Shown here: positions 1-36,540 of the stretch, one piece after another
How the letters are laid out: each line of letters opens with the position of its first letter
Numbering within the stretch: the stretch's first letter is position 1
Source of the DNA: Naegleria gruberi
Lineage: Eukaryota
NCBI GenBank assembly: GCA_000004985.1
Contig: GG739237.1
DNA length: 36,540 nucleotides
Reading direction: 5' to 3' (one strand)
The notes under the pieces: model-generated
Seen by the model: the letters and a program-made list of their open reading frames with translations, nothing else
Told to the model about the DNA's origin: nothing
The model's database searches: none
Made by a program: the position numbers and the translations under genes

Positions 1-2
1 TG

Positions 3-1559: not shown

Positions 1560-1608
1560 GTAGGTTTTTTTGTGAAATAATTTTTATTCTAATTGGAAAC
1601 TGAACAAG
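1560..1608 (+). other. Spliceosomal intron (49 nt, phase 1) of the vWA gene; donor GTAGGT, putative branch CTAAT at 1589-1593, acceptor AAG
   Basis: gtaggtttttttgtgaaataatttttattctaattggaaactgaacaag. Removing it joins ...GSMGSF to DEDATGQNRSKGLVDSNHWTRYDNVIQAAKYL..., which continues the vWA fold (helix alpha1, then beta-strand KVPLIFFDS, then the VLFIVFTDGSPNGG motif). The intron is AT-rich. The exact donor and acceptor are chosen because they are the only GT/AG pair that restores frame; no RNA evidence is available. Confidence 0.65.
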
Positions 1609-16900: not shown

Positions 16901-19900
16901 NNNNNNNNNNNNNNNNNNNNNNNNNNNNNNNNNNNNNNNNNNNNNNNNNNNNNNNNNNNNNNNNNNNNNNNNNNNNNNNNNNNNNNNNNNNNNNNNNNNN
17001 NNNNNNNNNNNNNNNNNNNNNNNNNNNNNNNNNNNNNNNNNNNNNNNNNNNNNNNNNNNNNNNNNNNNNNNNNNNNNNNNNNNNNNNNNNNNNNNNNNNN
17101 NNNNNNNNNNNNNNNNNNNNNNNNNNNNNNNNNNNNNNNNNNNNNNNNNNNNNNNNNNNNNNNNNNNNNNNNNNNNNNNNNNNNNNNNNNNNNNNNNNNN
17201 NNNNNNNNNNNNNNNNNNNNNNNNNNNNNNNNNNNNNNNNNNNNNNNNNNNNNNNNNNNNNNNNNNNNNNNNNNNNNNNNNNNNNNNNNNNNNNNNNNNN
17301 NNNNNNNNNNNNNNNNNNNNNNNNNNNNNNNNNNNNNNNNNNNNNNNNNNNNNNNNNNNNNNNNNNNNNNNNNNNNNNNNNNNNNNNNNNNNNNNNNNNN
17401 NNNNNNNNNNNNNNNNNNNNNNNNNNNNNNNNNNNNNNNNNNNNNNNNNNNNNNNNNNNNNNNNNNNNNNNNNNNNNNNNNNNNNNNNNNNNNNNNNNNN
17501 NNNNNNNNNNNNNNNNNNNNNNNNNNNNNNNNNNNNNNNNNNNNNNNNNNNNNNNNNNNNNNNNNNNNNNNNNNNNNNNNNNNNNNNNNNNNNNNNNNNN
17601 NNNNNNNNNNNNNNNNNNNNNNNNNNNNNNNNNNNNNNNNNNNNNNNNNNNNNNNNNNNNNNNNNNNNNNNNNNNNNNNNNNNNNNNNNNNNNNNNNNNN
17701 NNNNNNNNNNNNNNNNNNNNNNNNNNNNNNNNNNNNNNNNNNNNNNNNNNNNNNNNNNNNNNNNNNNNNNNNNNNNNNNNNNNNNNNNNNNNNNNNNNNN
17801 NNNNNNNNNNNNNNNNNNNNNNNNNNNNNNNNNNNNNNNNNNNNNNNNNNNNNNNNNNNNNNNNNNNNNNNNNNNNNNNNNNNNNNNNNNNNNNNNNNNN
17901 NNNNNNNNNNNNNNNNNNNNNNNNNNNNNNNNNNNNNNNNNNNNNNNNNNNNNNNNNNNNNNNNNNNNNNNNNNNNNNNNNNNNNNNNNNNNNNNNNNNN
18001 NNNNNNNNNNNNNNNNNNNNNNNNNNNNNNNNNNNNNNNNNNNNNNNNNNNNNNNNNNNNNNNNNNNNNNNNNNNNNNNNNNNNNNNNNNNNNNNNNNNN
18101 NNNNNNNNNNNNNNNNNNNNNNNNNNNNNNNNNNNNNNNNNNNNNNNNNNNNNNNNNNNNNNNNNNNNNNNNNNNNNNNNNNNNNNNNNNNNNNNNNNNN
18201 NNNNNNNNNNNNNNNNNNNNNNNNNNNNNNNNNNNNNNNNNNNNNNNNNNNNNNNNNNNNNNNNNNNNNNNNNNNNNNNNNNNNNNNNNNNNNNNNNNNN
18301 NNNNNNNNNNNNNNNNNNNNNNNNNNNNNNNNNNNNNNNNNNNNNNNNNNNNNNNNNNNNNNNNNNNNNNNNNNNNNNNNNNNNNNNNNNNNNNNNNNNN
18401 NNNNNNNNNNNNNNNNNNNNNNNNNNNNNNNNNNNNNNNNNNNNNNNNNNNNNNNNNNNNNNNNNNNNNNNNNNNNNNNNNNNNNNNNNNNNNNNNNNNN
18501 NNNNNNNNNNNNNNNNNNNNNNNNNNNNNNNNNNNNNNNNNNNNNNNNNNNNNNNNNNNNNNNNNNNNNNNNNNNNNNNNNNNNNNNNNNNNNNNNNNNN
18601 NNNNNNNNNNNNNNNNNNNNNNNNNNNNNNNNNNNNNNNNNNNNNNNNNNNNNNNNNNNNNNNNNNNNNNNNNNNNNNNNNNNNNNNNNNNNNNNNNNNN
18701 NNNNNNNNNNNNNNNNNNNNNNNNNNNNNNNNNNNNNNNNNNNNNNNNNNNNNNNNNNNNNNNNNNNNNNNNNNNNNNNNNNNNNNNNNNNNNNNNNNNN
18801 NNNNNNNNNNNNNNNNNNNNNNNNNNNNNNNNNNNNNNNNNNNNNNNNNNNNNNNNNNNNNNNNNNNNNNNNNNNNNNNNNNNNNNNNNNNNNNNNNNNN
18901 NNNNNNNNNNNNNNNNNNNNNNNNNNNNNNNNNNNNNNNNNNNNNNNNNNNNNNNNNNNNNNNNNNNNNNNNNNNNNNNNNNNNNNNNNNNNNNNNNNNN
19001 NNNNNNNNNNNNNNNNNNNNNNNNNNNNNNNNNNNNNNNNNNNNNNNNNNNNNNNNNNNNNNNNNNNNNNNNNNNNNNNNNNNNNNNNNNNNNNNNNNNN
19101 NNNNNNNNNNNNNNNNNNNNNNNNNNNNNNNNNNNNNNNNNNNNNNNNNNNNNNNNNNNNNNNNNNNNNNNNNNNNNNNNNNNNNNNNNNNNNNNNNNNN
19201 NNNNNNNNNNNNNNNNNNNNNNNNNNNNNNNNNNNNNNNNNNNNNNNNNNNNNNNNNNNNNNNNNNNNNNNNNNNNNNNNNNNNNNNNNNNNNNNNNNNN
19301 NNNNNNNNNNNNNNNNNNNNNNNNNNNNNNNNNNNNNNNNNNNNNNNNNNNNNNNNNNNNNNNNNNNNNNNNNNNNNNNNNNNNNNNNNNNNNNNNNNNN
19401 NNNNNNNNNNNNNNNNNNNNNNNNNNNNNNNNNNNNNNNNNNNNNNNNNNNNNNNNNNNNNNNNNNNNNNNNNNNNNNNNNNNNNNNNNNNNNNNNNNNN
19501 NNNNNNNNNNNNNNNNNNNNNNNNNNNNNNNNNNNNNNNNNNNNNNNNNNNNNNNNNNNNNNNNNNNNNNNNNNNNNNNNNNNNNNNNNNNNNNNNNNNN
19601 NNNNNNNNNNNNNNNNNNNNNNNNNNNNNNNNNNNNNNNNNNNNNNNNNNNNNNNNNNNNNNNNNNNNNNNNNNNNNNNNNNNNNNNNNNNNNNNNNNNN
19701 NNNNNNNNNNNNNNNNNNNNNNNNNNNNNNNNNNNNNNNNNNNNNNNNNNNNNNNNNNNNNNNNNNNNNNNNNNNNNNNNNNNNNNNNNNNNNNNNNNNN
19801 NNNNNNNNNNNNNNNNNNNNNNNNNNNNNNNNNNNNNNNNNNNNNNNNNNNNNNNNNNNNNNNNNNNNNNNNNNNNNNNNNNNNNNNNNNNNNNNNNNNN

Positions 19901-22900
19901 NNNNNNNNNNNNNNNNNNNNNNNNNNNNNNNNNNNNNNNNNNNNNNNNNNNNNNNNNNNNNNNNNNNNNNNNNNNNNNNNNNNNNNNNNNNNNNNNNNNN
20001 NNNNNNNNNNNNNNNNNNNNNNNNNNNNNNNNNNNNNNNNNNNNNNNNNNNNNNNNNNNNNNNNNNNNNNNNNNNNNNNNNNNNNNNNNNNNNNNNNNNN
20101 NNNNNNNNNNNNNNNNNNNNNNNNNNNNNNNNNNNNNNNNNNNNNNNNNNNNNNNNNNNNNNNNNNNNNNNNNNNNNNNNNNNNNNNNNNNNNNNNNNNN
20201 NNNNNNNNNNNNNNNNNNNNNNNNNNNNNNNNNNNNNNNNNNNNNNNNNNNNNNNNNNNNNNNNNNNNNNNNNNNNNNNNNNNNNNNNNNNNNNNNNNNN
20301 NNNNNNNNNNNNNNNNNNNNNNNNNNNNNNNNNNNNNNNNNNNNNNNNNNNNNNNNNNNNNNNNNNNNNNNNNNNNNNNNNNNNNNNNNNNNNNNNNNNN
20401 NNNNNNNNNNNNNNNNNNNNNNNNNNNNNNNNNNNNNNNNNNNNNNNNNNNNNNNNNNNNNNNNNNNNNNNNNNNNNNNNNNNNNNNNNNNNNNNNNNNN
20501 NNNNNNNNNNNNNNNNNNNNNNNNNNNNNNNNNNNNNNNNNNNNNNNNNNNNNNNNNNNNNNNNNNNNNNNNNNNNNNNNNNNNNNNNNNNNNNNNNNNN
20601 NNNNNNNNNNNNNNNNNNNNNNNNNNNNNNNNNNNNNNNNNNNNNNNNNNNNNNNNNNNNNNNNNNNNNNNNNNNNNNNNNNNNNNNNNNNNNNNNNNNN
20701 NNNNNNNNNNNNNNNNNNNNNNNNNNNNNNNNNNNNNNNNNNNNNNNNNNNNNNNNNNNNNNNNNNNNNNNNNNNNNNNNNNNNNNNNNNNNNNNNNNNN
20801 NNNNNNNNNNNNNNNNNNNNNNNNNNNNNNNNNNNNNNNNNNNNNNNNNNNNNNNNNNNNNNNNNNNNNNNNNNNNNNNNNNNNNNNNNNNNNNNNNNNN
20901 NNNNNNNNNNNNNNNNNNNNNNNNNNNNNNNNNNNNNNNNNNNNNNNNNNNNNNNNNNNNNNNNNNNNNNNNNNNNNNNNNNNNNNNNNNNNNNNNNNNN
21001 NNNNNNNNNNNNNNNNNNNNNNNNNNNNNNNNNNNNNNNNNNNNNNNNNNNNNNNNNNNNNNNNNNNNNNNNNNNNNNNNNNNNNNNNNNNNNNNNNNNN
21101 NNNNNNNNNNNNNNNNNNNNNNNNNNNNNNNNNNNNNNNNNNNNNNNNNNNNNNNNNNNNNNNNNNNNNNNNNNNNNNNNNNNNNNNNNNNNNNNNNNNN
21201 NNNNNNNNNNNNNNNNNNNNNNNNNNNNNNNNNNNNNNNNNNNNNNNNNNNNNNNNNNNNNNNNNNNNNNNNNNNNNNNNNNNNNNNNNNNNNNNNNNNN
21301 NNNNNNNNNNNNNNNNNNNNNNNNNNNNNNNNNNNNNNNNNNNNNNNNNNNNNNNNNNNNNNNNNNNNNNNNNNNNNNNNNNNNNNNNNNNNNNNNNNNN
21401 NNNNNNNNNNNNNNNNNNNNNNNNNNNNNNNNNNNNNNNNNNNNNNNNNNNNNNNNNNNNNNNNNNNNNNNNNNNNNNNNNNNNNNNNNNNNNNNNNNNN
21501 NNNNNNNNNNNNNNNNNNNNNNNNNNNNNNNNNNNNNNNNNNNNNNNNNNNNNNNNNNNNNNNNNNNNNNNNNNNNNNNNNNNNNNNNNNNNNNNNNNNN
21601 NNNNNNNNNNNNNNNNNNNNNNNNNNNNNNNNNNNNNNNNNNNNNNNNNNNNNNNNNNNNNNNNNNNNNNNNNNNNNNNNNNNNNNNNNNNNNNNNNNNN
21701 NNNNNNNNNNNNNNNNNNNNNNNNNNNNNNNNNNNNNNNNNNNNNNNNNNNNNNNNNNNNNNNNNNNNNNNNNNNNNNNNNNNNNNNNNNNNNNNNNNNN
21801 NNNNNNNNNNNNNNNNNNNNNNNNNNNNNNNNNNNNNNNNNNNNNNNNNNNNNNNNNNNNNNNNNNNNNNNNNNNNNNNNNNNNNNNNNNNNNNNNNNNN
21901 NNNNNNNNNNNNNNNNNNNNNNNNNNNNNNNNNNNNNNNNNNNNNNNNNNNNNNNNNNNNNNNNNNNNNNNNNNNNNNNNNNNNNNNNNNNNNNNNNNNN
22001 NNNNNNNNNNNNNNNNNNNNNNNNNNNNNNNNNNNNNNNNNNNNNNNNNNNNNNNNNNNNNNNNNNNNNNNNNNNNNNNNNNNNNNNNNNNNNNNNNNNN
22101 NNNNNNNNNNNNNNNNNNNNNNNNNNNNNNNNNNNNNNNNNNNNNNNNNNNNNNNNNNNNNNNNNNNNNNNNNNNNNNNNNNNNNNNNNNNNNNNNNNNN
22201 NNNNNNNNNNNNNNNNNNNNNNNNNNNNNNNNNNNNNNNNNNNNNNNNNNNNNNNNNNNNNNNNNNNNNNNNNNNNNNNNNNNNNNNNNNNNNNNNNNNN
22301 NNNNNNNNNNNNNNNNNNNNNNNNNNNNNNNNNNNNNNNNNNNNNNNNNNNNNNNNNNNNNNNNNNNNNNNNNNNNNNNNNNNNNNNNNNNNNNNNNNNN
22401 NNNNNNNNNNNNNNNNNNNNNNNNNNNNNNNNNNNNNNNNNNNNNNNNNNNNNNNNNNNNNNNNNNNNNNNNNNNNNNNNNNNNNNNNNNNNNNNNNNNN
22501 NNNNNNNNNNNNNNNNNNNNNNNNNNNNNNNNNNNNNNNNNNNNNNNNNNNNNNNNNNNNNNNNNNNNNNNNNNNNNNNNNNNNNNNNNNNNNNNNNNNN
22601 NNNNNNNNNNNNNNNNNNNNNNNNNNNNNNNNNNNNNNNNNNNNNNNNNNNNNNNNNNNNNNNNNNNNNNNNNNNNNNNNNNNNNNNNNNNNNNNNNNNN
22701 NNNNNNNNNNNNNNNNNNNNNNNNNNNNNNNNNNNNNNNNNNNNNNNNNNNNNNNNNNNNNNNNNNNNNNNNNNNNNNNNNNNNNNNNNNNNNNNNNNNN
22801 NNNNNNNNNNNNNNNNNNNNNNNNNNNNNNNNNNNNNNNNNNNNNNNNNNNNNNNNNNNNNNNNNNNNNNNNNNNNNNNNNNNNNNNNNNNNNNNNNNNN

Positions 22901-25900
22901 NNNNNNNNNNNNNNNNNNNNNNNNNNNNNNNNNNNNNNNNNNNNNNNNNNNNNNNNNNNNNNNNNNNNNNNNNNNNNNNNNNNNNNNNNNNNNNNNNNNN
23001 NNNNNNNNNNNNNNNNNNNNNNNNNNNNNNNNNNNNNNNNNNNNNNNNNNNNNNNNNNNNNNNNNNNNNNNNNNNNNNNNNNNNNNNNNNNNNNNNNNNN
23101 NNNNNNNNNNNNNNNNNNNNNNNNNNNNNNNNNNNNNNNNNNNNNNNNNNNNNNNNNNNNNNNNNNNNNNNNNNNNNNNNNNNNNNNNNNNNNNNNNNNN
23201 NNNNNNNNNNNNNNNNNNNNNNNNNNNNNNNNNNNNNNNNNNNNNNNNNNNNNNNNNNNNNNNNNNNNNNNNNNNNNNNNNNNNNNNNNNNNNNNNNNNN
23301 NNNNNNNNNNNNNNNNNNNNNNNNNNNNNNNNNNNNNNNNNNNNNNNNNNNNNNNNNNNNNNNNNNNNNNNNNNNNNNNNNNNNNNNNNNNNNNNNNNNN
23401 NNNNNNNNNNNNNNNNNNNNNNNNNNNNNNNNNNNNNNNNNNNNNNNNNNNNNNNNNNNNNNNNNNNNNNNNNNNNNNNNNNNNNNNNNNNNNNNNNNNN
23501 NNNNNNNNNNNNNNNNNNNNNNNNNNNNNNNNNNNNNNNNNNNNNNNNNNNNNNNNNNNNNNNNNNNNNNNNNNNNNNNNNNNNNNNNNNNNNNNNNNNN
23601 NNNNNNNNNNNNNNNNNNNNNNNNNNNNNNNNNNNNNNNNNNNNNNNNNNNNNNNNNNNNNNNNNNNNNNNNNNNNNNNNNNNNNNNNNNNNNNNNNNNN
23701 NNNNNNNNNNNNNNNNNNNNNNNNNNNNNNNNNNNNNNNNNNNNNNNNNNNNNNNNNNNNNNNNNNNNNNNNNNNNNNNNNNNNNNNNNNNNNNNNNNNN
23801 NNNNNNNNNNNNNNNNNNNNNNNNNNNNNNNNNNNNNNNNNNNNNNNNNNNNNNNNNNNNNNNNNNNNNNNNNNNNNNNNNNNNNNNNNNNNNNNNNNNN
23901 NNNNNNNNNNNNNNNNNNNNNNNNNNNNNNNNNNNNNNNNNNNNNNNNNNNNNNNNNNNNNNNNNNNNNNNNNNNNNNNNNNNNNNNNNNNNNNNNNNNN
24001 NNNNNNNNNNNNNNNNNNNNNNNNNNNNNNNNNNNNNNNNNNNNNNNNNNNNNNNNNNNNNNNNNNNNNNNNNNNNNNNNNNNNNNNNNNNNNNNNNNNN
24101 NNNNNNNNNNNNNNNNNNNNNNNNNNNNNNNNNNNNNNNNNNNNNNNNNNNNNNNNNNNNNNNNNNNNNNNNNNNNNNNNNNNNNNNNNNNNNNNNNNNN
24201 NNNNNNNNNNNNNNNNNNNNNNNNNNNNNNNNNNNNNNNNNNNNNNNNNNNNNNNNNNNNNNNNNNNNNNNNNNNNNNNNNNNNNNNNNNNNNNNNNNNN
24301 NNNNNNNNNNNNNNNNNNNNNNNNNNNNNNNNNNNNNNNNNNNNNNNNNNNNNNNNNNNNNNNNNNNNNNNNNNNNNNNNNNNNNNNNNNNNNNNNNNNN
24401 NNNNNNNNNNNNNNNNNNNNNNNNNNNNNNNNNNNNNNNNNNNNNNNNNNNNNNNNNNNNNNNNNNNNNNNNNNNNNNNNNNNNNNNNNNNNNNNNNNNN
24501 NNNNNNNNNNNNNNNNNNNNNNNNNNNNNNNNNNNNNNNNNNNNNNNNNNNNNNNNNNNNNNNNNNNNNNNNNNNNNNNNNNNNNNNNNNNNNNNNNNNN
24601 NNNNNNNNNNNNNNNNNNNNNNNNNNNNNNNNNNNNNNNNNNNNNNNNNNNNNNNNNNNNNNNNNNNNNNNNNNNNNNNNNNNNNNNNNNNNNNNNNNNN
24701 NNNNNNNNNNNNNNNNNNNNNNNNNNNNNNNNNNNNNNNNNNNNNNNNNNNNNNNNNNNNNNNNNNNNNNNNNNNNNNNNNNNNNNNNNNNNNNNNNNNN
24801 NNNNNNNNNNNNNNNNNNNNNNNNNNNNNNNNNNNNNNNNNNNNNNNNNNNNNNNNNNNNNNNNNNNNNNNNNNNNNNNNNNNNNNNNNNNNNNNNNNNN
24901 NNNNNNNNNNNNNNNNNNNNNNNNNNNNNNNNNNNNNNNNNNNNNNNNNNNNNNNNNNNNNNNNNNNNNNNNNNNNNNNNNNNNNNNNNNNNNNNNNNNN
25001 NNNNNNNNNNNNNNNNNNNNNNNNNNNNNNNNNNNNNNNNNNNNNNNNNNNNNNNNNNNNNNNNNNNNNNNNNNNNNNNNNNNNNNNNNNNNNNNNNNNN
25101 NNNNNNNNNNNNNNNNNNNNNNNNNNNNNNNNNNNNNNNNNNNNNNNNNNNNNNNNNNNNNNNNNNNNNNNNNNNNNNNNNNNNNNNNNNNNNNNNNNNN
25201 NNNNNNNNNNNNNNNNNNNNNNNNNNNNNNNNNNNNNNNNNNNNNNNNNNNNNNNNNNNNNNNNNNNNNNNNNNNNNNNNNNNNNNNNNNNNNNNNNNNN
25301 NNNNNNNNNNNNNNNNNNNNNNNNNNNNNNNNNNNNNNNNNNNNNNNNNNNNNNNNNNNNNNNNNNNNNNNNNNNNNNNNNNNNNNNNNNNNNNNNNNNN
25401 NNNNNNNNNNNNNNNNNNNNNNNNNNNNNNNNNNNNNNNNNNNNNNNNNNNNNNNNNNNNNNNNNNNNNNNNNNNNNNNNNNNNNNNNNNNNNNNNNNNN
25501 NNNNNNNNNNNNNNNNNNNNNNNNNNNNNNNNNNNNNNNNNNNNNNNNNNNNNNNNNNNNNNNNNNNNNNNNNNNNNNNNNNNNNNNNNNNNNNNNNNNN
25601 NNNNNNNNNNNNNNNNNNNNNNNNNNNNNNNNNNNNNNNNNNNNNNNNNNNNNNNNNNNNNNNNNNNNNNNNNNNNNNNNNNNNNNNNNNNNNNNNNNNN
25701 NNNNNNNNNNNNNNNNNNNNNNNNNNNNNNNNNNNNNNNNNNNNNNNNNNNNNNNNNNNNNNNNNNNNNNNNNNNNNNNNNNNNNNNNNNNNNNNNNNNN
25801 NNNNNNNNNNNNNNNNNNNNNNNNNNNNNNNNNNNNNNNNNNNNNNNNNNNNNNNNNNNNNNNNNNNNNNNNNNNNNNNNNNNNNNNNNNNNNNNNNNNN

Positions 25901-28900
25901 NNNNNNNNNNNNNNNNNNNNNNNNNNNNNNNNNNNNNNNNNNNNNNNNNNNNNNNNNNNNNNNNNNNNNNNNNNNNNNNNNNNNNNNNNNNNNNNNNNNN
26001 NNNNNNNNNNNNNNNNNNNNNNNNNNNNNNNNNNNNNNNNNNNNNNNNNNNNNNNNNNNNNNNNNNNNNNNNNNNNNNNNNNNNNNNNNNNNNNNNNNNN
26101 NNNNNNNNNNNNNNNNNNNNNNNNNNNNNNNNNNNNNNNNNNNNNNNNNNNNNNNNNNNNNNNNNNNNNNNNNNNNNNNNNNNNNNNNNNNNNNNNNNNN
26201 NNNNNNNNNNNNNNNNNNNNNNNNNNNNNNNNNNNNNNNNNNNNNNNNNNNNNNNNNNNNNNNNNNNNNNNNNNNNNNNNNNNNNNNNNNNNNNNNNNNN
26301 NNNNNNNNNNNNNNNNNNNNNNNNNNNNNNNNNNNNNNNNNNNNNNNNNNNNNNNNNNNNNNNNNNNNNNNNNNNNNNNNNNNNNNNNNNNNNNNNNNNN
26401 NNNNNNNNNNNNNNNNNNNNNNNNNNNNNNNNNNNNNNNNNNNNNNNNNNNNNNNNNNNNNNNNNNNNNNNNNNNNNNNNNNNNNNNNNNNNNNNNNNNN
26501 NNNNNNNNNNNNNNNNNNNNNNNNNNNNNNNNNNNNNNNNNNNNNNNNNNNNNNNNNNNNNNNNNNNNNNNNNNNNNNNNNNNNNNNNNNNNNNNNNNNN
26601 NNNNNNNNNNNNNNNNNNNNNNNNNNNNNNNNNNNNNNNNNNNNNNNNNNNNNNNNNNNNNNNNNNNNNNNNNNNNNNNNNNNNNNNNNNNNNNNNNNNN
26701 NNNNNNNNNNNNNNNNNNNNNNNNNNNNNNNNNNNNNNNNNNNNNNNNNNNNNNNNNNNNNNNNNNNNNNNNNNNNNNNNNNNNNNNNNNNNNNNNNNNN
26801 NNNNNNNNNNNNNNNNNNNNNNNNNNNNNNNNNNNNNNNNNNNNNNNNNNNNNNNNNNNNNNNNNNNNNNNNNNNNNNNNNNNNNNNNNNNNNNNNNNNN
26901 NNNNNNNNNNNNNNNNNNNNNNNNNNNNNNNNNNNNNNNNNNNNNNNNNNNNNNNNNNNNNNNNNNNNNNNNNNNNNNNNNNNNNNNNNNNNNNNNNNNN
27001 NNNNNNNNNNNNNNNNNNNNNNNNNNNNNNNNNNNNNNNNNNNNNNNNNNNNNNNNNNNNNNNNNNNNNNNNNNNNNNNNNNNNNNNNNNNNNNNNNNNN
27101 NNNNNNNNNNNNNNNNNNNNNNNNNNNNNNNNNNNNNNNNNNNNNNNNNNNNNNNNNNNNNNNNNNNNNNNNNNNNNNNNNNNNNNNNNNNNNNNNNNNN
27201 NNNNNNNNNNNNNNNNNNNNNNNNNNNNNNNNNNNNNNNNNNNNNNNNNNNNNNNNNNNNNNNNNNNNNNNNNNNNNNNNNNNNNNNNNNNNNNNNNNNN
27301 NNNNNNNNNNNNNNNNNNNNNNNNNNNNNNNNNNNNNNNNNNNNNNNNNNNNNNNNNNNNNNNNNNNNNNNNNNNNNNNNNNNNNNNNNNNNNNNNNNNN
27401 NNNNNNNNNNNNNNNNNNNNNNNNNNNNNNNNNNNNNNNNNNNNNNNNNNNNNNNNNNNNNNNNNNNNNNNNNNNNNNNNNNNNNNNNNNNNNNNNNNNN
27501 NNNNNNNNNNNNNNNNNNNNNNNNNNNNNNNNNNNNNNNNNNNNNNNNNNNNNNNNNNNNNNNNNNNNNNNNNNNNNNNNNNNNNNNNNNNNNNNNNNNN
27601 NNNNNNNNNNNNNNNNNNNNNNNNNNNNNNNNNNNNNNNNNNNNNNNNNNNNNNNNNNNNNNNNNNNNNNNNNNNNNNNNNNNNNNNNNNNNNNNNNNNN
27701 NNNNNNNNNNNNNNNNNNNNNNNNNNNNNNNNNNNNNNNNNNNNNNNNNNNNNNNNNNNNNNNNNNNNNNNNNNNNNNNNNNNNNNNNNNNNNNNNNNNN
27801 NNNNNNNNNNNNNNNNNNNNNNNNNNNNNNNNNNNNNNNNNNNNNNNNNNNNNNNNNNNNNNNNNNNNNNNNNNNNNNNNNNNNNNNNNNNNNNNNNNNN
27901 NNNNNNNNNNNNNNNNNNNNNNNNNNNNNNNNNNNNNNNNNNNNNNNNNNNNNNNNNNNNNNNNNNNNNNNNNNNNNNNNNNNNNNNNNNNNNNNNNNNN
28001 NNNNNNNNNNNNNNNNNNNNNNNNNNNNNNNNNNNNNNNNNNNNNNNNNNNNNNNNNNNNNNNNNNNNNNNNNNNNNNNNNNNNNNNNNNNNNNNNNNNN
28101 NNNNNNNNNNNNNNNNNNNNNNNNNNNNNNNNNNNNNNNNNNNNNNNNNNNNNNNNNNNNNNNNNNNNNNNNNNNNNNNNNNNNNNNNNNNNNNNNNNNN
28201 NNNNNNNNNNNNNNNNNNNNNNNNNNNNNNNNNNNNNNNNNNNNNNNNNNNNNNNNNNNNNNNNNNNNNNNNNNNNNNNNNNNNNNNNNNNNNNNNNNNN
28301 NNNNNNNNNNNNNNNNNNNNNNNNNNNNNNNNNNNNNNNNNNNNNNNNNNNNNNNNNNNNNNNNNNNNNNNNNNNNNNNNNNNNNNNNNNNNNNNNNNNN
28401 NNNNNNNNNNNNNNNNNNNNNNNNNNNNNNNNNNNNNNNNNNNNNNNNNNNNNNNNNNNNNNNNNNNNNNNNNNNNNNNNNNNNNNNNNNNNNNNNNNNN
28501 NNNNNNNNNNNNNNNNNNNNNNNNNNNNNNNNNNNNNNNNNNNNNNNNNNNNNNNNNNNNNNNNNNNNNNNNNNNNNNNNNNNNNNNNNNNNNNNNNNNN
28601 NNNNNNNNNNNNNNNNNNNNNNNNNNNNNNNNNNNNNNNNNNNNNNNNNNNNNNNNNNNNNNNNNNNNNNNNNNNNNNNNNNNNNNNNNNNNNNNNNNNN
28701 NNNNNNNNNNNNNNNNNNNNNNNNNNNNNNNNNNNNNNNNNNNNNNNNNNNNNNNNNNNNNNNNNNNNNNNNNNNNNNNNNNNNNNNNNNNNNNNNNNNN
28801 NNNNNNNNNNNNNNNNNNNNNNNNNNNNNNNNNNNNNNNNNNNNNNNNNNNNNNNNNNNNNNNNNNNNNNNNNNNNNNNNNNNNNNNNNNNNNNNNNNNN

Positions 28901-31900
28901 NNNNNNNNNNNNNNNNNNNNNNNNNNNNNNNNNNNNNNNNNNNNNNNNNNNNNNNNNNNNNNNNNNNNNNNNNNNNNNNNNNNNNNNNNNNNNNNNNNNN
29001 NNNNNNNNNNNNNNNNNNNNNNNNNNNNNNNNNNNNNNNNNNNNNNNNNNNNNNNNNNNNNNNNNNNNNNNNNNNNNNNNNNNNNNNNNNNNNNNNNNNN
29101 NNNNNNNNNNNNNNNNNNNNNNNNNNNNNNNNNNNNNNNNNNNNNNNNNNNNNNNNNNNNNNNNNNNNNNNNNNNNNNNNNNNNNNNNNNNNNNNNNNNN
29201 NNNNNNNNNNNNNNNNNNNNNNNNNNNNNNNNNNNNNNNNNNNNNNNNNNNNNNNNNNNNNNNNNNNNNNNNNNNNNNNNNNNNNNNNNNNNNNNNNNNN
29301 NNNNNNNNNNNNNNNNNNNNNNNNNNNNNNNNNNNNNNNNNNNNNNNNNNNNNNNNNNNNNNNNNNNNNNNNNNNNNNNNNNNNNNNNNNNNNNNNNNNN
29401 NNNNNNNNNNNNNNNNNNNNNNNNNNNNNNNNNNNNNNNNNNNNNNNNNNNNNNNNNNNNNNNNNNNNNNNNNNNNNNNNNNNNNNNNNNNNNNNNNNNN
29501 NNNNNNNNNNNNNNNNNNNNNNNNNNNNNNNNNNNNNNNNNNNNNNNNNNNNNNNNNNNNNNNNNNNNNNNNNNNNNNNNNNNNNNNNNNNNNNNNNNNN
29601 NNNNNNNNNNNNNNNNNNNNNNNNNNNNNNNNNNNNNNNNNNNNNNNNNNNNNNNNNNNNNNNNNNNNNNNNNNNNNNNNNNNNNNNNNNNNNNNNNNNN
29701 NNNNNNNNNNNNNNNNNNNNNNNNNNNNNNNNNNNNNNNNNNNNNNNNNNNNNNNNNNNNNNNNNNNNNNNNNNNNNNNNNNNNNNNNNNNNNNNNNNNN
29801 NNNNNNNNNNNNNNNNNNNNNNNNNNNNNNNNNNNNNNNNNNNNNNNNNNNNNNNNNNNNNNNNNNNNNNNNNNNNNNNNNNNNNNNNNNNNNNNNNNNN
29901 NNNNNNNNNNNNNNNNNNNNNNNNNNNNNNNNNNNNNNNNNNNNNNNNNNNNNNNNNNNNNNNNNNNNNNNNNNNNNNNNNNNNNNNNNNNNNNNNNNNN
30001 NNNNNNNNNNNNNNNNNNNNNNNNNNNNNNNNNNNNNNNNNNNNNNNNNNNNNNNNNNNNNNNNNNNNNNNNNNNNNNNNNNNNNNNNNNNNNNNNNNNN
30101 NNNNNNNNNNNNNNNNNNNNNNNNNNNNNNNNNNNNNNNNNNNNNNNNNNNNNNNNNNNNNNNNNNNNNNNNNNNNNNNNNNNNNNNNNNNNNNNNNNNN
30201 NNNNNNNNNNNNNNNNNNNNNNNNNNNNNNNNNNNNNNNNNNNNNNNNNNNNNNNNNNNNNNNNNNNNNNNNNNNNNNNNNNNNNNNNNNNNNNNNNNNN
30301 NNNNNNNNNNNNNNNNNNNNNNNNNNNNNNNNNNNNNNNNNNNNNNNNNNNNNNNNNNNNNNNNNNNNNNNNNNNNNNNNNNNNNNNNNNNNNNNNNNNN
30401 NNNNNNNNNNNNNNNNNNNNNNNNNNNNNNNNNNNNNNNNNNNNNNNNNNNNNNNNNNNNNNNNNNNNNNNNNNNNNNNNNNNNNNNNNNNNNNNNNNNN
30501 NNNNNNNNNNNNNNNNNNNNNNNNNNNNNNNNNNNNNNNNNNNNNNNNNNNNNNNNNNNNNNNNNNNNNNNNNNNNNNNNNNNNNNNNNNNNNNNNNNNN
30601 NNNNNNNNNNNNNNNNNNNNNNNNNNNNNNNNNNNNNNNNNNNNNNNNNNNNNNNNNNNNNNNNNNNNNNNNNNNNNNNNNNNNNNNNNNNNNNNNNNNN
30701 NNNNNNNNNNNNNNNNNNNNNNNNNNNNNNNNNNNNNNNNNNNNNNNNNNNNNNNNNNNNNNNNNNNNNNNNNNNNNNNNNNNNNNNNNNNNNNNNNNNN
30801 NNNNNNNNNNNNNNNNNNNNNNNNNNNNNNNNNNNNNNNNNNNNNNNNNNNNNNNNNNNNNNNNNNNNNNNNNNNNNNNNNNNNNNNNNNNNNNNNNNNN
30901 NNNNNNNNNNNNNNNNNNNNNNNNNNNNNNNNNNNNNNNNNNNNNNNNNNNNNNNNNNNNNNNNNNNNNNNNNNNNNNNNNNNNNNNNNNNNNNNNNNNN
31001 NNNNNNNNNNNNNNNNNNNNNNNNNNNNNNNNNNNNNNNNNNNNNNNNNNNNNNNNNNNNNNNNNNNNNNNNNNNNNNNNNNNNNNNNNNNNNNNNNNNN
31101 NNNNNNNNNNNNNNNNNNNNNNNNNNNNNNNNNNNNNNNNNNNNNNNNNNNNNNNNNNNNNNNNNNNNNNNNNNNNNNNNNNNNNNNNNNNNNNNNNNNN
31201 NNNNNNNNNNNNNNNNNNNNNNNNNNNNNNNNNNNNNNNNNNNNNNNNNNNNNNNNNNNNNNNNNNNNNNNNNNNNNNNNNNNNNNNNNNNNNNNNNNNN
31301 NNNNNNNNNNNNNNNNNNNNNNNNNNNNNNNNNNNNNNNNNNNNNNNNNNNNNNNNNNNNNNNNNNNNNNNNNNNNNNNNNNNNNNNNNNNNNNNNNNNN
31401 NNNNNNNNNNNNNNNNNNNNNNNNNNNNNNNNNNNNNNNNNNNNNNNNNNNNNNNNNNNNNNNNNNNNNNNNNNNNNNNNNNNNNNNNNNNNNNNNNNNN
31501 NNNNNNNNNNNNNNNNNNNNNNNNNNNNNNNNNNNNNNNNNNNNNNNNNNNNNNNNNNNNNNNNNNNNNNNNNNNNNNNNNNNNNNNNNNNNNNNNNNNN
31601 NNNNNNNNNNNNNNNNNNNNNNNNNNNNNNNNNNNNNNNNNNNNNNNNNNNNNNNNNNNNNNNNNNNNNNNNNNNNNNNNNNNNNNNNNNNNNNNNNNNN
31701 NNNNNNNNNNNNNNNNNNNNNNNNNNNNNNNNNNNNNNNNNNNNNNNNNNNNNNNNNNNNNNNNNNNNNNNNNNNNNNNNNNNNNNNNNNNNNNNNNNNN
31801 NNNNNNNNNNNNNNNNNNNNNNNNNNNNNNNNNNNNNNNNNNNNNNNNNNNNNNNNNNNNNNNNNNNNNNNNNNNNNNNNNNNNNNNNNNNNNNNNNNNN

Positions 31901-34900
31901 NNNNNNNNNNNNNNNNNNNNNNNNNNNNNNNNNNNNNNNNNNNNNNNNNNNNNNNNNNNNNNNNNNNNNNNNNNNNNNNNNNNNNNNNNNNNNNNNNNNN
32001 NNNNNNNNNNNNNNNNNNNNNNNNNNNNNNNNNNNNNNNNNNNNNNNNNNNNNNNNNNNNNNNNNNNNNNNNNNNNNNNNNNNNNNNNNNNNNNNNNNNN
32101 NNNNNNNNNNNNNNNNNNNNNNNNNNNNNNNNNNNNNNNNNNNNNNNNNNNNNNNNNNNNNNNNNNNNNNNNNNNNNNNNNNNNNNNNNNNNNNNNNNNN
32201 NNNNNNNNNNNNNNNNNNNNNNNNNNNNNNNNNNNNNNNNNNNNNNNNNNNNNNNNNNNNNNNNNNNNNNNNNNNNNNNNNNNNNNNNNNNNNNNNNNNN
32301 NNNNNNNNNNNNNNNNNNNNNNNNNNNNNNNNNNNNNNNNNNNNNNNNNNNNNNNNNNNNNNNNNNNNNNNNNNNNNNNNNNNNNNNNNNNNNNNNNNNN
32401 NNNNNNNNNNNNNNNNNNNNNNNNNNNNNNNNNNNNNNNNNNNNNNNNNNNNNNNNNNNNNNNNNNNNNNNNNNNNNNNNNNNNNNNNNNNNNNNNNNNN
32501 NNNNNNNNNNNNNNNNNNNNNNNNNNNNNNNNNNNNNNNNNNNNNNNNNNNNNNNNNNNNNNNNNNNNNNNNNNNNNNNNNNNNNNNNNNNNNNNNNNNN
32601 NNNNNNNNNNNNNNNNNNNNNNNNNNNNNNNNNNNNNNNNNNNNNNNNNNNNNNNNNNNNNNNNNNNNNNNNNNNNNNNNNNNNNNNNNNNNNNNNNNNN
32701 NNNNNNNNNNNNNNNNNNNNNNNNNNNNNNNNNNNNNNNNNNNNNNNNNNNNNNNNNNNNNNNNNNNNNNNNNNNNNNNNNNNNNNNNNNNNNNNNNNNN
32801 NNNNNNNNNNNNNNNNNNNNNNNNNNNNNNNNNNNNNNNNNNNNNNNNNNNNNNNNNNNNNNNNNNNNNNNNNNNNNNNNNNNNNNNNNNNNNNNNNNNN
32901 NNNNNNNNNNNNNNNNNNNNNNNNNNNNNNNNNNNNNNNNNNNNNNNNNNNNNNNNNNNNNNNNNNNNNNNNNNNNNNNNNNNNNNNNNNNNNNNNNNNN
33001 NNNNNNNNNNNNNNNNNNNNNNNNNNNNNNNNNNNNNNNNNNNNNNNNNNNNNNNNNNNNNNNNNNNNNNNNNNNNNNNNNNNNNNNNNNNNNNNNNNNN
33101 NNNNNNNNNNNNNNNNNNNNNNNNNNNNNNNNNNNNNNNNNNNNNNNNNNNNNNNNNNNNNNNNNNNNNNNNNNNNNNNNNNNNNNNNNNNNNNNNNNNN
33201 NNNNNNNNNNNNNNNNNNNNNNNNNNNNNNNNNNNNNNNNNNNNNNNNNNNNNNNNNNNNNNNNNNNNNNNNNNNNNNNNNNNNNNNNNNNNNNNNNNNN
33301 NNNNNNNNNNNNNNNNNNNNNNNNNNNNNNNNNNNNNNNNNNNNNNNNNNNNNNNNNNNNNNNNNNNNNNNNNNNNNNNNNNNNNNNNNNNNNNNNNNNN
33401 NNNNNNNNNNNNNNNNNNNNNNNNNNNNNNNNNNNNNNNNNNNNNNNNNNNNNNNNNNNNNNNNNNNNNNNNNNNNNNNNNNNNNNNNNNNNNNNNNNNN
33501 NNNNNNNNNNNNNNNNNNNNNNNNNNNNNNNNNNNNNNNNNNNNNNNNNNNNNNNNNNNNNNNNNNNNNNNNNNNNNNNNNNNNNNNNNNNNNNNNNNNN
33601 NNNNNNNNNNNNNNNNNNNNNNNNNNNNNNNNNNNNNNNNNNNNNNNNNNNNNNNNNNNNNNNNNNNNNNNNNNNNNNNNNNNNNNNNNNNNNNNNNNNN
33701 NNNNNNNNNNNNNNNNNNNNNNNNNNNNNNNNNNNNNNNNNNNNNNNNNNNNNNNNNNNNNNNNNNNNNNNNNNNNNNNNNNNNNNNNNNNNNNNNNNNN
33801 NNNNNNNNNNNNNNNNNNNNNNNNNNNNNNNNNNNNNNNNNNNNNNNNNNNNNNNNNNNNNNNNNNNNNNNNNNNNNNNNNNNNNNNNNNNNNNNNNNNN
33901 NNNNNNNNNNNNNNNNNNNNNNNNNNNNNNNNNNNNNNNNNNNNNNNNNNNNNNNNNNNNNNNNNNNNNNNNNNNNNNNNNNNNNNNNNNNNNNNNNNNN
34001 NNNNNNNNNNNNNNNNNNNNNNNNNNNNNNNNNNNNNNNNNNNNNNNNNNNNNNNNNNNNNNNNNNNNNNNNNNNNNNNNNNNNNNNNNNNNNNNNNNNN
34101 NNNNNNNNNNNNNNNNNNNNNNNNNNNNNNNNNNNNNNNNNNNNNNNNNNNNNNNNNNNNNNNNNNNNNNNNNNNNNNNNNNNNNNNNNNNNNNNNNNNN
34201 NNNNNNNNNNNNNNNNNNNNNNNNNNNNNNNNNNNNNNNNNNNNNNNNNNNNNNNNNNNNNNNNNNNNNNNNNNNNNNNNNNNNNNNNNNNNNNNNNNNN
34301 NNNNNNNNNNNNNNNNNNNNNNNNNNNNNNNNNNNNNNNNNNNNNNNNNNNNNNNNNNNNNNNNNNNNNNNNNNNNNNNNNNNNNNNNNNNNNNNNNNNN
34401 NNNNNNNNNNNNNNNNNNNNNNNNNNNNNNNNNNNNNNNNNNNNNNNNNNNNNNNNNNNNNNNNNNNNNNNNNNNNNNNNNNNNNNNNNNNNNNNNNNNN
34501 NNNNNNNNNNNNNNNNNNNNNNNNNNNNNNNNNNNNNNNNNNNNNNNNNNNNNNNNNNNNNNNNNNNNNNNNNNNNNNNNNNNNNNNNNNNNNNNNNNNN
34601 NNNNNNNNNNNNNNNNNNNNNNNNNNNNNNNNNNNNNNNNNNNNNNNNNNNNNNNNNNNNNNNNNNNNNNNNNNNNNNNNNNNNNNNNNNNNNNNNNNNN
34701 NNNNNNNNNNNNNNNNNNNNNNNNNNNNNNNNNNNNNNNNNNNNNNNNNNNNNNNNNNNNNNNNNNNNNNNNNNNNNNNNNNNNNNNNNNNNNNNNNNNN
34801 NNNNNNNNNNNNNNNNNNNNNNNNNNNNNNNNNNNNNNNNNNNNNNNNNNNNNNNNNNNNNNNNNNNNNNNNNNNNNNNNNNNNNNNNNNNNNNNNNNNN

Positions 34901-35495
34901 NNNNNNNNNNNNNNNNNNNNNNNNNNNNNNNNNNNNNNNNNNNNNNNNNNNNNNNNNNNNNNNNNNNNNNNNNNNNNNNNNNNNNNNNNNNNNNNNNNNN
35001 NNNNNNNNNNNNNNNNNNNNNNNNNNNNNNNNNNNNNNNNNNNNNNNNNNNNNNNNNNNNNNNNNNNNNNNNNNNNNNNNNNNNNNNNNNNNNNNNNNNN
35101 NNNNNNNNNNNNNNNNNNNNNNNNNNNNNNNNNNNNNNNNNNNNNNNNNNNNNNNNNNNNNNNNNNNNNNNNNNNNNNNNNNNNNNNNNNNNNNNNNNNN
35201 NNNNNNNNNNNNNNNNNNNNNNNNNNNNNNNNNNNNNNNNNNNNNNNNNNNNNNNNNNNNNNNNNNNNNNNNNNNNNNNNNNNNNNNNNNNNNNNNNNNN
35301 NNNNNNNNNNNNNNNNNNNNNNNNNNNNNNNNNNNNNNNNNNNNNNNNNNNNNNNNNNNNNNNNNNNNNNNNNNNNNNNNNNNNNNNNNNNNNNNNNNNN
35401 NNNNNNNNNNNNNNNNNNNNNNNNNNNNNNNNNNNNNNNNNNNNNNNNNNNNNNNNNNNNNNNNNNNNNNNNNNNNNNNNNNNNNNNNNNNNNNN
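1980..35495. other. Assembly gap: 33,516 consecutive N
   Basis: Uninterrupted n from 1980 to 35495. No sequence information. Every ORF-track feature crossing it is an artefact. Confidence 0.99.
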
Positions 35496-36540
35496 TTAAT
35501 AAATCTTGTAATTCGATCATTCTAGTTTCAGAATAAGATGGTTGAAATGTTTCTAATATTGGAGCATTTTCAGTTATTTCCTCCAAGCATATTTTTAAAT
35601 TTGATTTCAAGAGCAGATTTCTTGCTCTTTTGATAACATGAGAATAATCAAAAATATGGTATGAAGATAAATCTGTTTTCAATTTTTCTGCAACTTGAAT
35701 ATTTCCATTGGCTCCATCTGAACTAGTGCACACCAATGTGAAAGATTCATTCTTGTTTTGAATGAGATTGACTACTTCTTTGATTTTTCTGACAATAAAA
35801 TCTACGTGCTTACTAGAATCGTATCCAAAAGCTCCAAGAGGAAAACTACAATTCCCATCTAGAGATGTGTAAAAAAACTGACAAAGTTTTGAGGCAACAT
35901 CTGATTGGCTGATGGTTTCATGTTTTTCCATTACTTCATCACTAGTTAAGATGTTATCATTAATAAAACCTACAACTCGTTTTTGAAATGAATCAAATAC
36001 AAGTCCAGAACGAATTTCCATTTCATCCCATGAAATAATAAATTCTTTACAAATATTTTGTGTGATCATTCCATCAATAAGAGAAGATAATGAGTTATTC
36101 CATGATGTATTCATTGATGGTAAATATTCTTGCAATGTAGAAATGGAAGGCAGAATGAAATTATAATTAAGAGTACCTTTTTGATTAGAATTAAACCCTC
36201 TAAAGAATTCATATGCCTTCTTACCTCCACAATATTTGAAGTTTAAACACCATTCAATTATTATTGGATCATGCCGAATTTGACGTGAAGATTTATCAGC
36301 ATTTACGATGGTATTGGATATAAATCTATAAAAGAAATGGTTTGGTGTTATAATTTTACGTTCCAACAGTGATCTTAATTTTTCAACAATTACATCATCA
36401 TTATGTGACAATATTTTGACCTTCCTTTTGAGTGATTTGATTGTTTTACGAAACTGTTGAATTTTCTTTGCTAATGTTCTATCATGATACTTTCGTAGTG
36501 AATTTCTATATAATTTTCCACAAGAAGAGCACGTACGTGA
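35496..36540 (-). CDS. P-element / THAP9-family transposase (Tnp_P_element-type catalytic region), internal fragment: N-terminal side continues beyond the window end, C-terminal side continues into the gap
   Basis: The minus-strand frame is open over all 1,045 real bases. The track's start at 36411 is a TTG inside an open frame that continues to base 36540 (SRTCSSCGKLYRNSLRKYHDRTLAKKIQQFRKTIKSLKRKVKI-LSHNDD...). The translation is collinear, from my recollection of those sequences, with Drosophila P transposase and human THAP9. IVEKLRSLLERK matches the leucine-zipper/coiled-coil region. EWCLNFKYCGGKKAYEFF..FILPSISTLQEYL matches AICLHTAGPRAYNHLY..FPLPSRTTLYRWL. IISWDEMEI matches LAFDEMKV (first catalytic Asp). 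FTLVCTSSDGANGNIQVAEKL matches YLVVAIVSDLGTGNQKLWTELG and VLAVTSDATAHSVQMAKALG (second catalytic Asp). HIFDYSHVIKRARNLL matches FVFSDTPHLIKLVRN and FFDSCHLLRLIRNAF. No internal stop or frameshift in the visible part. Confidence 0.8.

What the first reader, a model, noticed from the sequence alone, without database searches (positions are those of the whole stretch)
35496..36540. Apparently intact P-element/THAP9-family transposase gene in a yeast-like genome
The minus-strand ORF aligns block-for-block with the catalytic core of P-element transposases, including the two visible acidic motifs of the RNase-H-like fold (SWDEM and CTSSDG) and the FD(Y/S)xH(L/V)IKxxRN block. It has no stops across 348 codons. 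P-superfamily DNA transposons are sporadic in fungi and essentially unreported in budding-yeast-type genomes. An intact copy next to an unassemblable 33.5-kb region is therefore noteworthy. It could be an active element, part of a repeat cluster that caused the gap, or a domesticated THAP9-like host gene. The THAP zinc finger and the third catalytic Glu would lie outside the visible sequence.
Basis: partly seen in the sequence, partly recalled or inferred. Interest (0 to 1): 0.7.

Follow-up and report, generated by a model that had tools for sequence, protein, structure and literature searches.

The report
P-type transposase fragment in Naegleria
The open reading frame is a real but doubly truncated piece of a P-element-type "cut-and-paste" transposase. 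It sits in the amoeba Naegleria gruberi, not in a yeast, and belongs to a little-described protist branch of that family whose complete members also carry a DNA-trimming exonuclease.

Summary
Window 35496-36540 (minus strand) is one 348-codon open frame, and the SWDEM, SSDG and FDYSHVIKRARN motifs are present.

It is a P-superfamily transposase:
- Pfam TNP-like_RNaseH_N scores above its gathering threshold.
- A family profile hits Drosophila P transposase (6p5a) at E=1e-13, with all three catalytic residues aligned.

Several parts of the interpretation fail:
- The window is a whole 36.5-kb Naegleria gruberi scaffold, not yeast.
- The ORF is cut by the scaffold end and by the N gap, so "intact" cannot be judged.
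- Relatives show no THAP domain and no PF12017 hit.
- The GTP-binding residues of the fly enzyme do not appear conserved.

The ORF belongs to a divergent clade found in amoeboid protists and metagenomes. Full-length members, including a 1200-aa N. gruberi paralogue, fuse the transposase to a C2H2 finger and a TREX-like DEDDh exonuclease. Two metagenomic families of this clade are multicopy elements of about 4.1 kb, with roughly 16-bp terminal inverted repeats. Flank matches between contigs indicate 8-bp target duplications. Kolobok and hAT are rejected.

Interest is moderate: a new variant of a known kind, seen here only as a fragment.

The parts
35496..36540 (-). 348-codon open reading frame, truncated at both ends. 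It covers the N-terminal part of a P-superfamily transposase, from the last CxxC of the N-terminal zinc module to just past the D(2)H motif.
   Evidence: 0 stops, other frames 15-42 stops. PF21787; 169 homologues. AF2 model, pLDDT 81.4. Foldseek top hits 6pe2/6p5a.
36520..36531 (-). CSSC (aa 4-7), the last Cys pair of the family's N-terminal C...C...CxxC zinc module. The rest of the module lies beyond the scaffold end.
   Evidence: C-x2-C is invariant in the family; no THAP or PDB match for the module.
36403..36528 (-). Long helix (aa 5-46), a coiled-coil-like segment. It occupies the position of the P transposase leucine-zipper dimerisation region.
   Evidence: DSSP helix H5-46. The P transposase domain order is taken from PMC7776569. 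Dimerisation is inferred.
36061..36393 (-). Helical HTH-type DNA-binding region (aa 50-160), including IIEWCL..YCGGKKAYEF and LPSISTLQEYLP (aa 130-141, 36118-36153).
   Evidence: LPS.sTL...FDEM aligns with 6p5a residues 178-247; the whole-chain fold matches. PF12017 itself does not hit.
35680..36060 (-). N-terminal half of the RNase H-like catalytic domain (aa 161-287), with catalytic D172 (36025-36027, SWDEM) and D275 (35716-35718, SSDG).
   Evidence: PF21787 covers aa 161-287; near-invariant D172 and D275; these align to D230 and D303 of DmTNP.
35617..35652 (-). FDYSHVIKRARN, the D(2)H...K..RN signature that follows the second catalytic Asp in P-type transposases.
   Evidence: D298, H301, K304, R307 and N308 are invariant; aligns to SDTPHLIKLVRN of 6p5a.
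35496..35589 (-). Last 31 codons (aa 318-348). They are divergent and low-confidence, and probably begin a lineage-specific insertion ahead of the alpha-helical insertion domain. The ORF then runs into the N gap.
   Evidence: pLDDT below 50 for aa 318-337; relative P0001 also has an insertion here; no alignment to the family consensus.
1980..35495 (.). Scaffold gap of 33,516 N. It would hold the rest of the gene (insertion domain, catalytic Glu and, if present, zinc finger and exonuclease) and the 3' end of any element.

Best explanation
The ORF is a fragment of a gene for a P-superfamily DDE cut-and-paste transposase in Naegleria gruberi.

The visible part encodes:
- the end of an N-terminal zinc module;
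- a coiled-coil segment;
- a helix-turn-helix DNA-binding region;
- the first half of the RNase H-like catalytic domain, with two of the three catalytic acids (D172, D275) and the D(2)H..K..RN signature.

From its complete relatives I infer that the missing C-terminal part holds an all-helical insertion domain, the third catalytic Glu (VENxFSxIRxK), a C2H2 finger and probably a TREX-like DEDDh 3'-5' exonuclease.

Members of this clade are true mobile elements. Two families from metagenomes are about 4.1 kb, hold one long gene, have imperfect terminal inverted repeats of about 16 bp (TAYGGKGTGCTGACT) plus subterminal inverted repeats, and make 8-bp target-site duplications. The inferred mechanism is P-like. 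The transposase binds the ends, pairs them, cuts with the DDE site and integrates with an 8-bp stagger.

The fused exonuclease plausibly trims 3' single-stranded tails of the kind that P-type staggered cleavage leaves. That step is speculation. Whether this particular copy is complete, active or mobile cannot be decided from the window.
For: Shown for the window ORF:
- Open frame, P about 1e-13 by chance.
- PF21787 above gathering score.
- 169 homologues at E<=1e-3.
- Family profile against PDB: best hit 6p5a at E=9.9e-14, with D230/D303/E531 aligned to the family D/D/E.
- AF2 model (pLDDT 81.4): best Foldseek hits 6pe2/6p5a at E=4e-8, next Hermes at 2e-3.
- GC3 of 0.21 against 0.22-0.25 for the two host genes, so the composition is host-like.

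Shown for relatives:
- RNase_T/TREX-like exonuclease in P0004, P0003, P0165 and 16 of 53 long members. The family profile hits TREX-type exonuclease structures at E=2.7e-10.
- Multicopy elements with sharp ends, at least 7 distinct left flanks each, and copies 99.3-100% identical.
- Two independent exact 8/8 matches between a left flank and a right flank, GCAGTTTT and CAAATTGA, with the ninth base differing in both.
- Family members appear in transcriptomes of Soliformovum, Rhizamoeba and Pompholyxophrys, so they are expressed.
Against: - The fragment lacks a start, a stop, the third catalytic residue, terminal repeats and target duplications, so none of these can be checked for this copy.
- No close copy (>55% identity) exists among about 15 billion predicted proteins, so copy number in Naegleria is unknown.
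- Only the N-terminal RNase H Pfam model hits most family members. TNP-like_GBD hit 2 of 53, TNP-like_RNaseH_C 1 of 53, and THAP and PF12017 0 of 53.
- Of the eight GTP-contacting residues of the fly enzyme (PMC7776569), only F443 (aromatic) and perhaps K385 line up with similar family consensus residues. GTP dependence, a P hallmark, is therefore doubtful.
- The 8-bp duplication rests on matching flanks across different, probably chimeric, short-read contigs. One locus seen in two assemblies (L006, L018) shows unrelated flanks.
Confidence: 0.85

Rival explanations
1. It is a domesticated, THAP9-like host gene of Naegleria: a transposase-derived protein kept for a cellular function and no longer mobile.
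For: - The frame is open over all 348 visible codons and has host-like GC3.
- N. gruberi has very little transposon DNA (0.28% in bioRxiv 10.64898/2026.06.24.734286).
- The two N. gruberi paralogues are only 37% identical, so they are old.
- P0004 is an annotated gene on a 331-kb scaffold.
- In L002 the related 1480-aa gene ends 28 bp from a neighbouring host-type gene.
Against: - No orthologue above 55% identity was found in any other annotated genome or transcriptome, other Naegleria species included as far as the libraries hold them.
- Clade members are demonstrably multicopy, near-identical and bounded by inverted repeats elsewhere.
- The distribution is patchy across Discoba, Amoebozoa and Rotosphaerida.
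- There is no THAP domain.
Confidence: 0.2
2. It is a decayed or partial relic: a dead copy, or a solo fragment at a contig end, that is open only over the visible stretch.
For: The gene is cut on both sides. The last 31 codons do not align to the family and are modelled with low confidence. The contig is only 1,045 bp.
Against: A frame of 348 stop-free codons in 30% GC DNA is very unlikely without recent selection. All invariant family residues are intact. The closest relative has an insertion at the same place, which explains the divergent tail.
Confidence: 0.25
3. It belongs to the Kolobok superfamily. Kolobok is known from Naegleria, and its KolobokD lineage also carries a DEDDh exonuclease.
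For: Kojima & Bao 2022 (PMC9587614) list Naegleria among Kolobok hosts and describe TREX-like DEDDh exonucleases in KolobokD.
Against: - The Kolobok_1_NaeGru core motifs (DARYSSRR, HDKDSTV, LDPNHVIK, NSQNNESIHS) differ from those seen here.
- hhalign of the family profile against that core gives probability 1.2% and aligns only the D(2)H motif.
- The family has no conserved zinc finger between D(2)H and E, a feature of almost all Kolobok.
- The target duplication is 8 bp, not TTAA.
- Fold searches single out the P transposase.
Confidence: 0.02
4. It is a hAT-superfamily transposase. hAT elements also make 8-bp duplications and have a related RNase H fold with an insertion domain.
Confidence: 0.03

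Closest known systems
Drosophila P element transposase (PDB 6p5a/6pe2) and the P superfamily
   Same: - The order of parts is the same: zinc module, coiled coil, HTH, then an RNase H domain split by an all-helical insertion domain.
- The catalytic D/D/E align.
- The D(2)H..K..RN and ENxFS signatures are present.
- Relatives' elements have short terminal inverted repeats, subterminal inverted repeats and 8-bp target duplications.
   Different: - Sequence identity is only about 15-18%.
- No THAP domain is detectable; a C...C...CxxC module sits in its place.
- The GTP-contacting residues are mostly not conserved in the profile alignment.
- Pfam GBD, RNaseH_C and PF12017 models do not hit.
- Complete members add a C2H2 finger and a TREX-like DEDDh exonuclease, and some add a Ulp1 protease or a SAP domain.
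- The hosts are amoeboid protists rather than animals.
Vertebrate THAP9 (domesticated P transposase) and the zebrafish Pdre/THAP9 element
   Same: They share a homologous catalytic core (the same Pfam TNP-like_RNaseH_N family). The zebrafish element also has 13-bp terminal repeats, subterminal repeats and 8-bp duplications (PMC7776569).
   Different: THAP9 proteins match P transposase along their whole length and carry THAP. This clade does not, and it has the exonuclease fusion. Domestication is not shown here.
KolobokD DNA transposons (Kojima & Bao 2022)
   Same: They are a precedent for a eukaryotic DDE transposon that encodes a TREX-like DEDDh exonuclease, and Kolobok occurs in Naegleria.
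   Different: The transposase superfamily differs by motifs, by hhalign, by the zinc finger between D2 and E, and by the TTAA duplication. The exonuclease association here is probably independent of the Kolobok one.
N. gruberi predicted protein XP_002672253.1 / D2VUG4 (NAEGRDRAFT_72654)
   Same: It comes from the same genome and the same clade. It is 37% identical over aa 26-317 of the window ORF and is a complete 1200-aa protein: transposase, C2H2 finger, RNase_T exonuclease and a Cys-rich tail.
   Different: It is a distant paralogue, not another copy of the same element, and is annotated only as 'predicted protein'.

Membership tests
P superfamily (P element / THAP9-type transposases) | RNase H-like catalytic domain recognised by the family's own profile (Pfam TNP-like_RNaseH_N, PF21787) | tested here: met
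   Window ORF: E=5.9e-9, 36.8 bits against a gathering score of 24.6. 31 of 53 long homologues hit it, best E=2.3e-28.
P superfamily (P element / THAP9-type transposases) | Catalytic DDE triad aligned to D230, D303 and E531 of Drosophila P transposase | tested here: met
   D172 and D275 of the window ORF align to D230 and D303. E531 aligns to the family's VENxFS Glu, which is seen only in relatives because the window ends first.
P superfamily (P element / THAP9-type transposases) | Overall fold: HTH plus a split RNase H domain with an all-helical insertion domain, as in 6p5a | tested here: met
P superfamily (P element / THAP9-type transposases) | 8-bp target-site duplication and short terminal plus subterminal inverted repeats | tested here: met
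   Met in two related metagenomic families. It cannot be tested for the window copy, whose ends lie outside the visible sequence.
P superfamily (P element / THAP9-type transposases) | N-terminal THAP (C2CH) DNA-binding domain | tested here: not met
   0 of 53 long relatives hit Pfam THAP. The N-terminal C..C..CxxC module has no PDB or THAP match. In the window only the last CxxC is visible.
P superfamily (P element / THAP9-type transposases) | GTP-binding residues of the insertion domain (K385, K400, V401, S409, F443, D444, N447, D528) | tested here: inconclusive
   In the profile alignment to 6p5a, only F443 (aromatic) and perhaps K385 face similar consensus residues (residue list from PMC7776569). 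The alignment is weak in this region, and the region is absent from the window.
   No hit at E<=1 for the window ORF and none in 53 relatives, although the region aligns to 6p5a in profile and fold.
Domesticated THAP9-like host gene | Single-copy orthologues conserved across related species, without terminal repeats | tested here: inconclusive
   No orthologue above 55% identity exists in the protein libraries. Copy number and ends in N. gruberi cannot be examined with these tools.
Kolobok superfamily (including KolobokD) | Kolobok catalytic-core motifs, a zinc finger between C/DxxH and E, and a TTAA duplication | tested here: not met
   hhalign probability 1.2% against Kolobok_1_NaeGru. The motifs differ. 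There are no conserved Cys between D(2)H and E. The duplication is 8 bp.
hAT superfamily | hAT C-terminal dimerisation domain, BED finger, and closest fold to Hermes | tested here: not met

The most novel reading that the evidence does not exclude
The fragment is the Naegleria representative of an undescribed, protist-wide lineage of P-superfamily transposons. In this lineage the transposase has swapped THAP for a different C4 zinc module and has lost the GTP-binding residues. It is also fused to its own TREX-like 3'-5' exonuclease, sometimes with a Ulp1 protease or SAP domain as well. That would be a GTP-independent P-like element that brings its own end-processing nuclease, and it would show that P-type elements are ancient and widespread outside animals.
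Probability: 0.45. Interest if true: 0.55.

Novelty: new variant of a known kind. Interest (0 to 1): 0.4.

Why it matters
P elements are a textbook transposon, yet they are known almost only from animals, with a few protozoan Repbase entries (from my own knowledge, not checked here). Their unusual features, namely the GTP cofactor, 17-nt staggered cleavage and the THAP domain, have been studied in a single enzyme.

A divergent branch with the same fold but no THAP, apparently without the GTP site and with a fused 3'-5' exonuclease, offers a natural comparison. It could show which of those features are essential, and how the 3' tails left by P-type cleavage are processed.

For Naegleria it adds a transposase family to a genome that is very poor in transposons.

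For the scan itself, the lesson is that the 'yeast' context that drove the high first-stage score was wrong. The window shows only a fragment.

Tried and rejected
- phmmer of the ORF against PDB sequences found nothing significant. Only the family profile reached 6p5a.
- The word-index protein search found one relative. Repeating it with the family alignment returned only two proteins because of the candidate cap.
It found no confirmed relative with the single ORF or with a 3-sequence alignment. Both scans are now used.
- The look-up of encoding contigs could not locate the N. gruberi paralogue P0004, so its genomic ends could not be inspected.
- The inverted-repeat search in single-copy contigs L001, L002 and L004 gave only low-complexity matches and no credible terminal repeats. 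Ends were found only by comparing multiple copies.
- Kolobok was considered seriously because of the exonuclease and its presence in Naegleria, then rejected.
- THAP was rejected for the N-terminal module.
- A 'TA' duplication was considered, because both element ends read TA and one locus (L006, L018) has unrelated flanks. It is disfavoured by two exact 8-mer matches between flanks (roughly 2e-4 and 4e-4 each by chance).
- The afdb50 fold library was not available.
- Literature searches found no paper describing P-type elements in Naegleria or a P-plus-DEDDh fusion. The library excludes Repbase Reports and most subscription journals, so this is weak evidence of novelty.

Full report
**What is in the window.** Only two short stretches are real sequence: 1-1979 and 35496-36540. 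Positions 1980-35495 are 33,516 N. The first gene of the window is 100% identical to 'predicted protein, partial [Naegleria gruberi]', and the longest contig recorded for that protein is exactly 36,540 bp. The window is therefore a complete small scaffold of the N. gruberi assembly: a 2-kb contig and a 1-kb contig joined across an estimated gap. The fosmid-like total length is my inference. The genome is a heterolobosean amoeboflagellate, not a yeast.

**Check of the observation.** The minus strand of 35496-36540 translates into 348 codons without a stop, while the other five frames have 15-42 stops. At this composition the chance of such a frame is about 1e-13. SWDEM (D172), CTSSDG (D275) and FDYSHVIKRARN (aa 297-308) are present. 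The ORF has neither start nor stop. Its N-terminus runs off the scaffold end and its C-terminus runs into the gap. 'Intact' cannot be assessed.

**Family assignment from sequence.**
- Pfam gives one significant hit, TNP-like_RNaseH_N (PF21787), at E=5.9e-9 and 36.8 bits against a gathering score of 24.6, over aa 161-287.
- A single-sequence search of PDB finds nothing.
- An exhaustive phmmer search of 1.84 billion representative proteins finds 169 relatives at E<=1e-3.
- A profile of the ORF plus 30 relatives (A1) has the Drosophila P element transposase (6p5a) as its best PDB match, at E=9.9e-14.
- That alignment runs from LPSxxTL...FDEM through SDxGxGN and DxPHLIKxVRN to VEHFFGSMRS. It places the family's conserved D, D and E on the catalytic D230, D303 and E531.

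**Family assignment from structure.**
- An AlphaFold model of the window fragment (pLDDT 81.4) finds the P transposase first (Foldseek E=4e-8). Hermes follows at 2e-3.
- A model of the N. gruberi paralogue, aa 95-746 (pLDDT 83.6, pTM 0.78), matches 6p5a with Foldseek E=2.7e-16 and TM 0.70.

**The clade it belongs to.** The nearest relatives are the following.

| Relative | Source | Identity to the window ORF | Notes |
|---|---|---|---|
| L001 / P0001 + P0007 | metagenome contig | 49% over all 348 aa once a probable 35-nt intron is removed | |
| P0003 | metagenome, 1480 aa | 42% | |
| P0004 (XP_002672253.1) | N. gruberi, 1200 aa, on a 331-kb scaffold | 37% | |

Named sources of other members are transcriptomes of Soliformovum irregulare and Rhizamoeba saxonica (Amoebozoa) and Pompholyxophrys punicea (Rotosphaerida). 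Most members come from metagenomes.

Complete members share D(2)H..K..RN, followed about 170 residues later by VENxFSxIRxK. After that come a C2H2-type finger and a DEDDh exonuclease:
- Pfam RNase_T hits 16 of 53 long members.
- The family profile hits TREX-type structures at E=2.7e-10.
- P0004 scores 1.6e-6 and P0165 scores 1.2e-11.
- P0003 also ends in a Ulp1 protease domain (E=1.6e-8), and P0018 has a SAP domain.

None of the 53 long members has a Pfam THAP or PF12017 hit. Only 2 hit TNP-like_GBD and 1 hits TNP-like_RNaseH_C. The N-terminal module is C-x-G...C...C-x2-C, of which the window shows only the last CxxC. It has no PDB match.

Of the eight GTP-contacting residues of the fly enzyme (PMC7776569), only F443 and perhaps K385 face similar consensus residues in the profile alignment. 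This alignment is weak, so I treat GTP binding as doubtful rather than excluded.

**Evidence that the clade is mobile.** Two metagenomic families could be delimited because the same protein occurs on many contigs.
- *Family A* (P0165, 1201 aa; its representative P0029 hits the window ORF at E=2.9e-17). Copies are 99.3-99.98% identical. They share a sharp left end, TACGGGGTGCTGACTTG, and right end, GGAGTCAGACACCCGTA. There are seven different left flanks. The element is 4,147 bp and has a perfect 13-bp subterminal inverted repeat, GTCCGCAAATAGG.
- *Family B* (P0155). The element is 4,119 bp, with ends TATGG(T/G)GTGCTGACTG and GGAGTCAGACACCCATA, seven left flanks and four right flanks.

In each family one right flank equals, 8 of 8, the left flank of another contig. 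These are GCAGTTTT (L010 left, L008 right) and CAAATTGA (L020/L024 left, L019 right). The ninth base differs in both cases. By chance this would be about 2e-4 and 4e-4.

One locus seen in two assemblies (L006, L018) has unrelated flanks. I attribute this to arbitrary pairing of flanks when short reads are assembled across 99.9%-identical 4-kb repeats. A direct empty-site test is still needed.

An 8-bp duplication fits P (and hAT) and excludes Kolobok.

**Rivals.**
- *Kolobok* deserved attention. It is reported from Naegleria, and its KolobokD lineage carries a TREX-like exonuclease (PMC9587614). However, the Naegleria Kolobok core has different motifs, and hhalign gives a probability of 1.2%. 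The family also lacks the Kolobok zinc finger between D(2)H and E, and the duplication is not TTAA.
- *hAT* is rejected by the fold scores and by the absence of hAT and BED domains.
- *A domesticated gene* cannot be excluded for this copy. The frame is open, its composition is host-like (GC3 0.21 against 0.22-0.25), Naegleria is transposon-poor, and the two paralogues are old. Against this, there is no conserved orthologue elsewhere, and relatives are plainly mobile.
- *A decayed relic* is also possible, but a 348-codon open frame with every invariant residue intact argues against long decay.

**How it most likely works.**
- *Shown:* the visible protein has the P-type order of coiled coil, HTH and first RNase H half, with two catalytic Asp residues.
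- *Inferred from relatives:* the full protein completes the DDE site across a helical insertion domain, recognises terminal and subterminal inverted repeats of about 16 bp, and integrates with an 8-bp stagger.
- *Speculative:* the fused TREX-like 3'-5' exonuclease trims 3' single-stranded tails. P transposase leaves 17-nt 3' extensions (PMC7776569). Kojima & Bao made the analogous suggestion for KolobokD.

**Verdict.** The ORF is a P-superfamily transposase. It sits in Naegleria rather than a yeast, it is visible only as a fragment, and it belongs to a divergent exonuclease-bearing, THAP-less protist clade rather than to canonical P/THAP9.

I found no paper describing such a clade. Repbase could not be searched, so novelty is uncertain. 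I rate it a new variant of a known kind with moderate interest (0.4).

Noticed in passing
window 1-36540: The window is an entire small N. gruberi scaffold: a 1,979-bp contig and a 1,045-bp contig around a 33,516-N gap. The total length is fosmid-like, so the gap is probably a clone-size estimate rather than an unassemblable repeat (inference).
   Followed up: partly
window 1-893 (+): This is the 3' part of a gene for a Rax2-like/kelch-type beta-propeller protein with a hydrophobic C-terminal tail (...VVALIASLIVTLFF*). Pfam Rax2 gives E=1.4e-11. It is identical to the annotated N. gruberi 'predicted protein, partial'.
   Followed up: partly
window 1292-1979 (+), intron 1560-1608: This gene starts MGNKQS (a possible myristoylation signal, by eye), has a His/Gln run and a von Willebrand A domain (DHSGSM; VWA_2 E=2.3e-5, just below gathering). 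It needs a 49-nt GTAGGT...AAG intron to stay in frame, and it runs into the gap.
   Followed up: partly
L005-L013, L016-L018 (family A); L019-L026 (family B): Two metagenomic P-like elements of about 4.1 kb have related termini (TAYGGKGTGCTGACT) and copies 99.3-100% identical, and appear across many samples. In family B the transposase ORF (842 aa) and the exonuclease ORF (350 aa) overlap by 38 nt, whereas variant P0158 (1204 aa) is fused. This could be a frameshifted copy or programmed frameshifting.
   Followed up: partly
L005 3987-8906: One copy of family A is cut short at its right end by a Ty3/gypsy-type retroelement gene (RVT_1, rve, Chromo), a nested insertion.
   Followed up: no
L001 814-848: The closest relative's gene is split into two ORFs. 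A 35-nt GTATGC...TTAG segment, if spliced out, rejoins them in frame. That suggests a very short intron and a host with tiny introns. The window ORF has no intron at that site.
   Followed up: partly
P0003 (L002 737-5179), P0018, P0004: Accessory domains vary within the clade. P0003 has a Ulp1 protease (Peptidase_C48) at its C-terminus, and its exonuclease is interrupted by a long poly-Asn tract. P0018 has a SAP domain. The N. gruberi paralogue has a long Cys-rich tail resembling B-box/CXC motifs.
   Followed up: partly
family N-termini (alignment A5): A conserved module of about 70 residues, C-x-G-[IV]...C...C-x2-C, replaces THAP upstream of the coiled coil. It has no Pfam or PDB match and may be an undescribed DNA-binding zinc domain.
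   Followed up: partly
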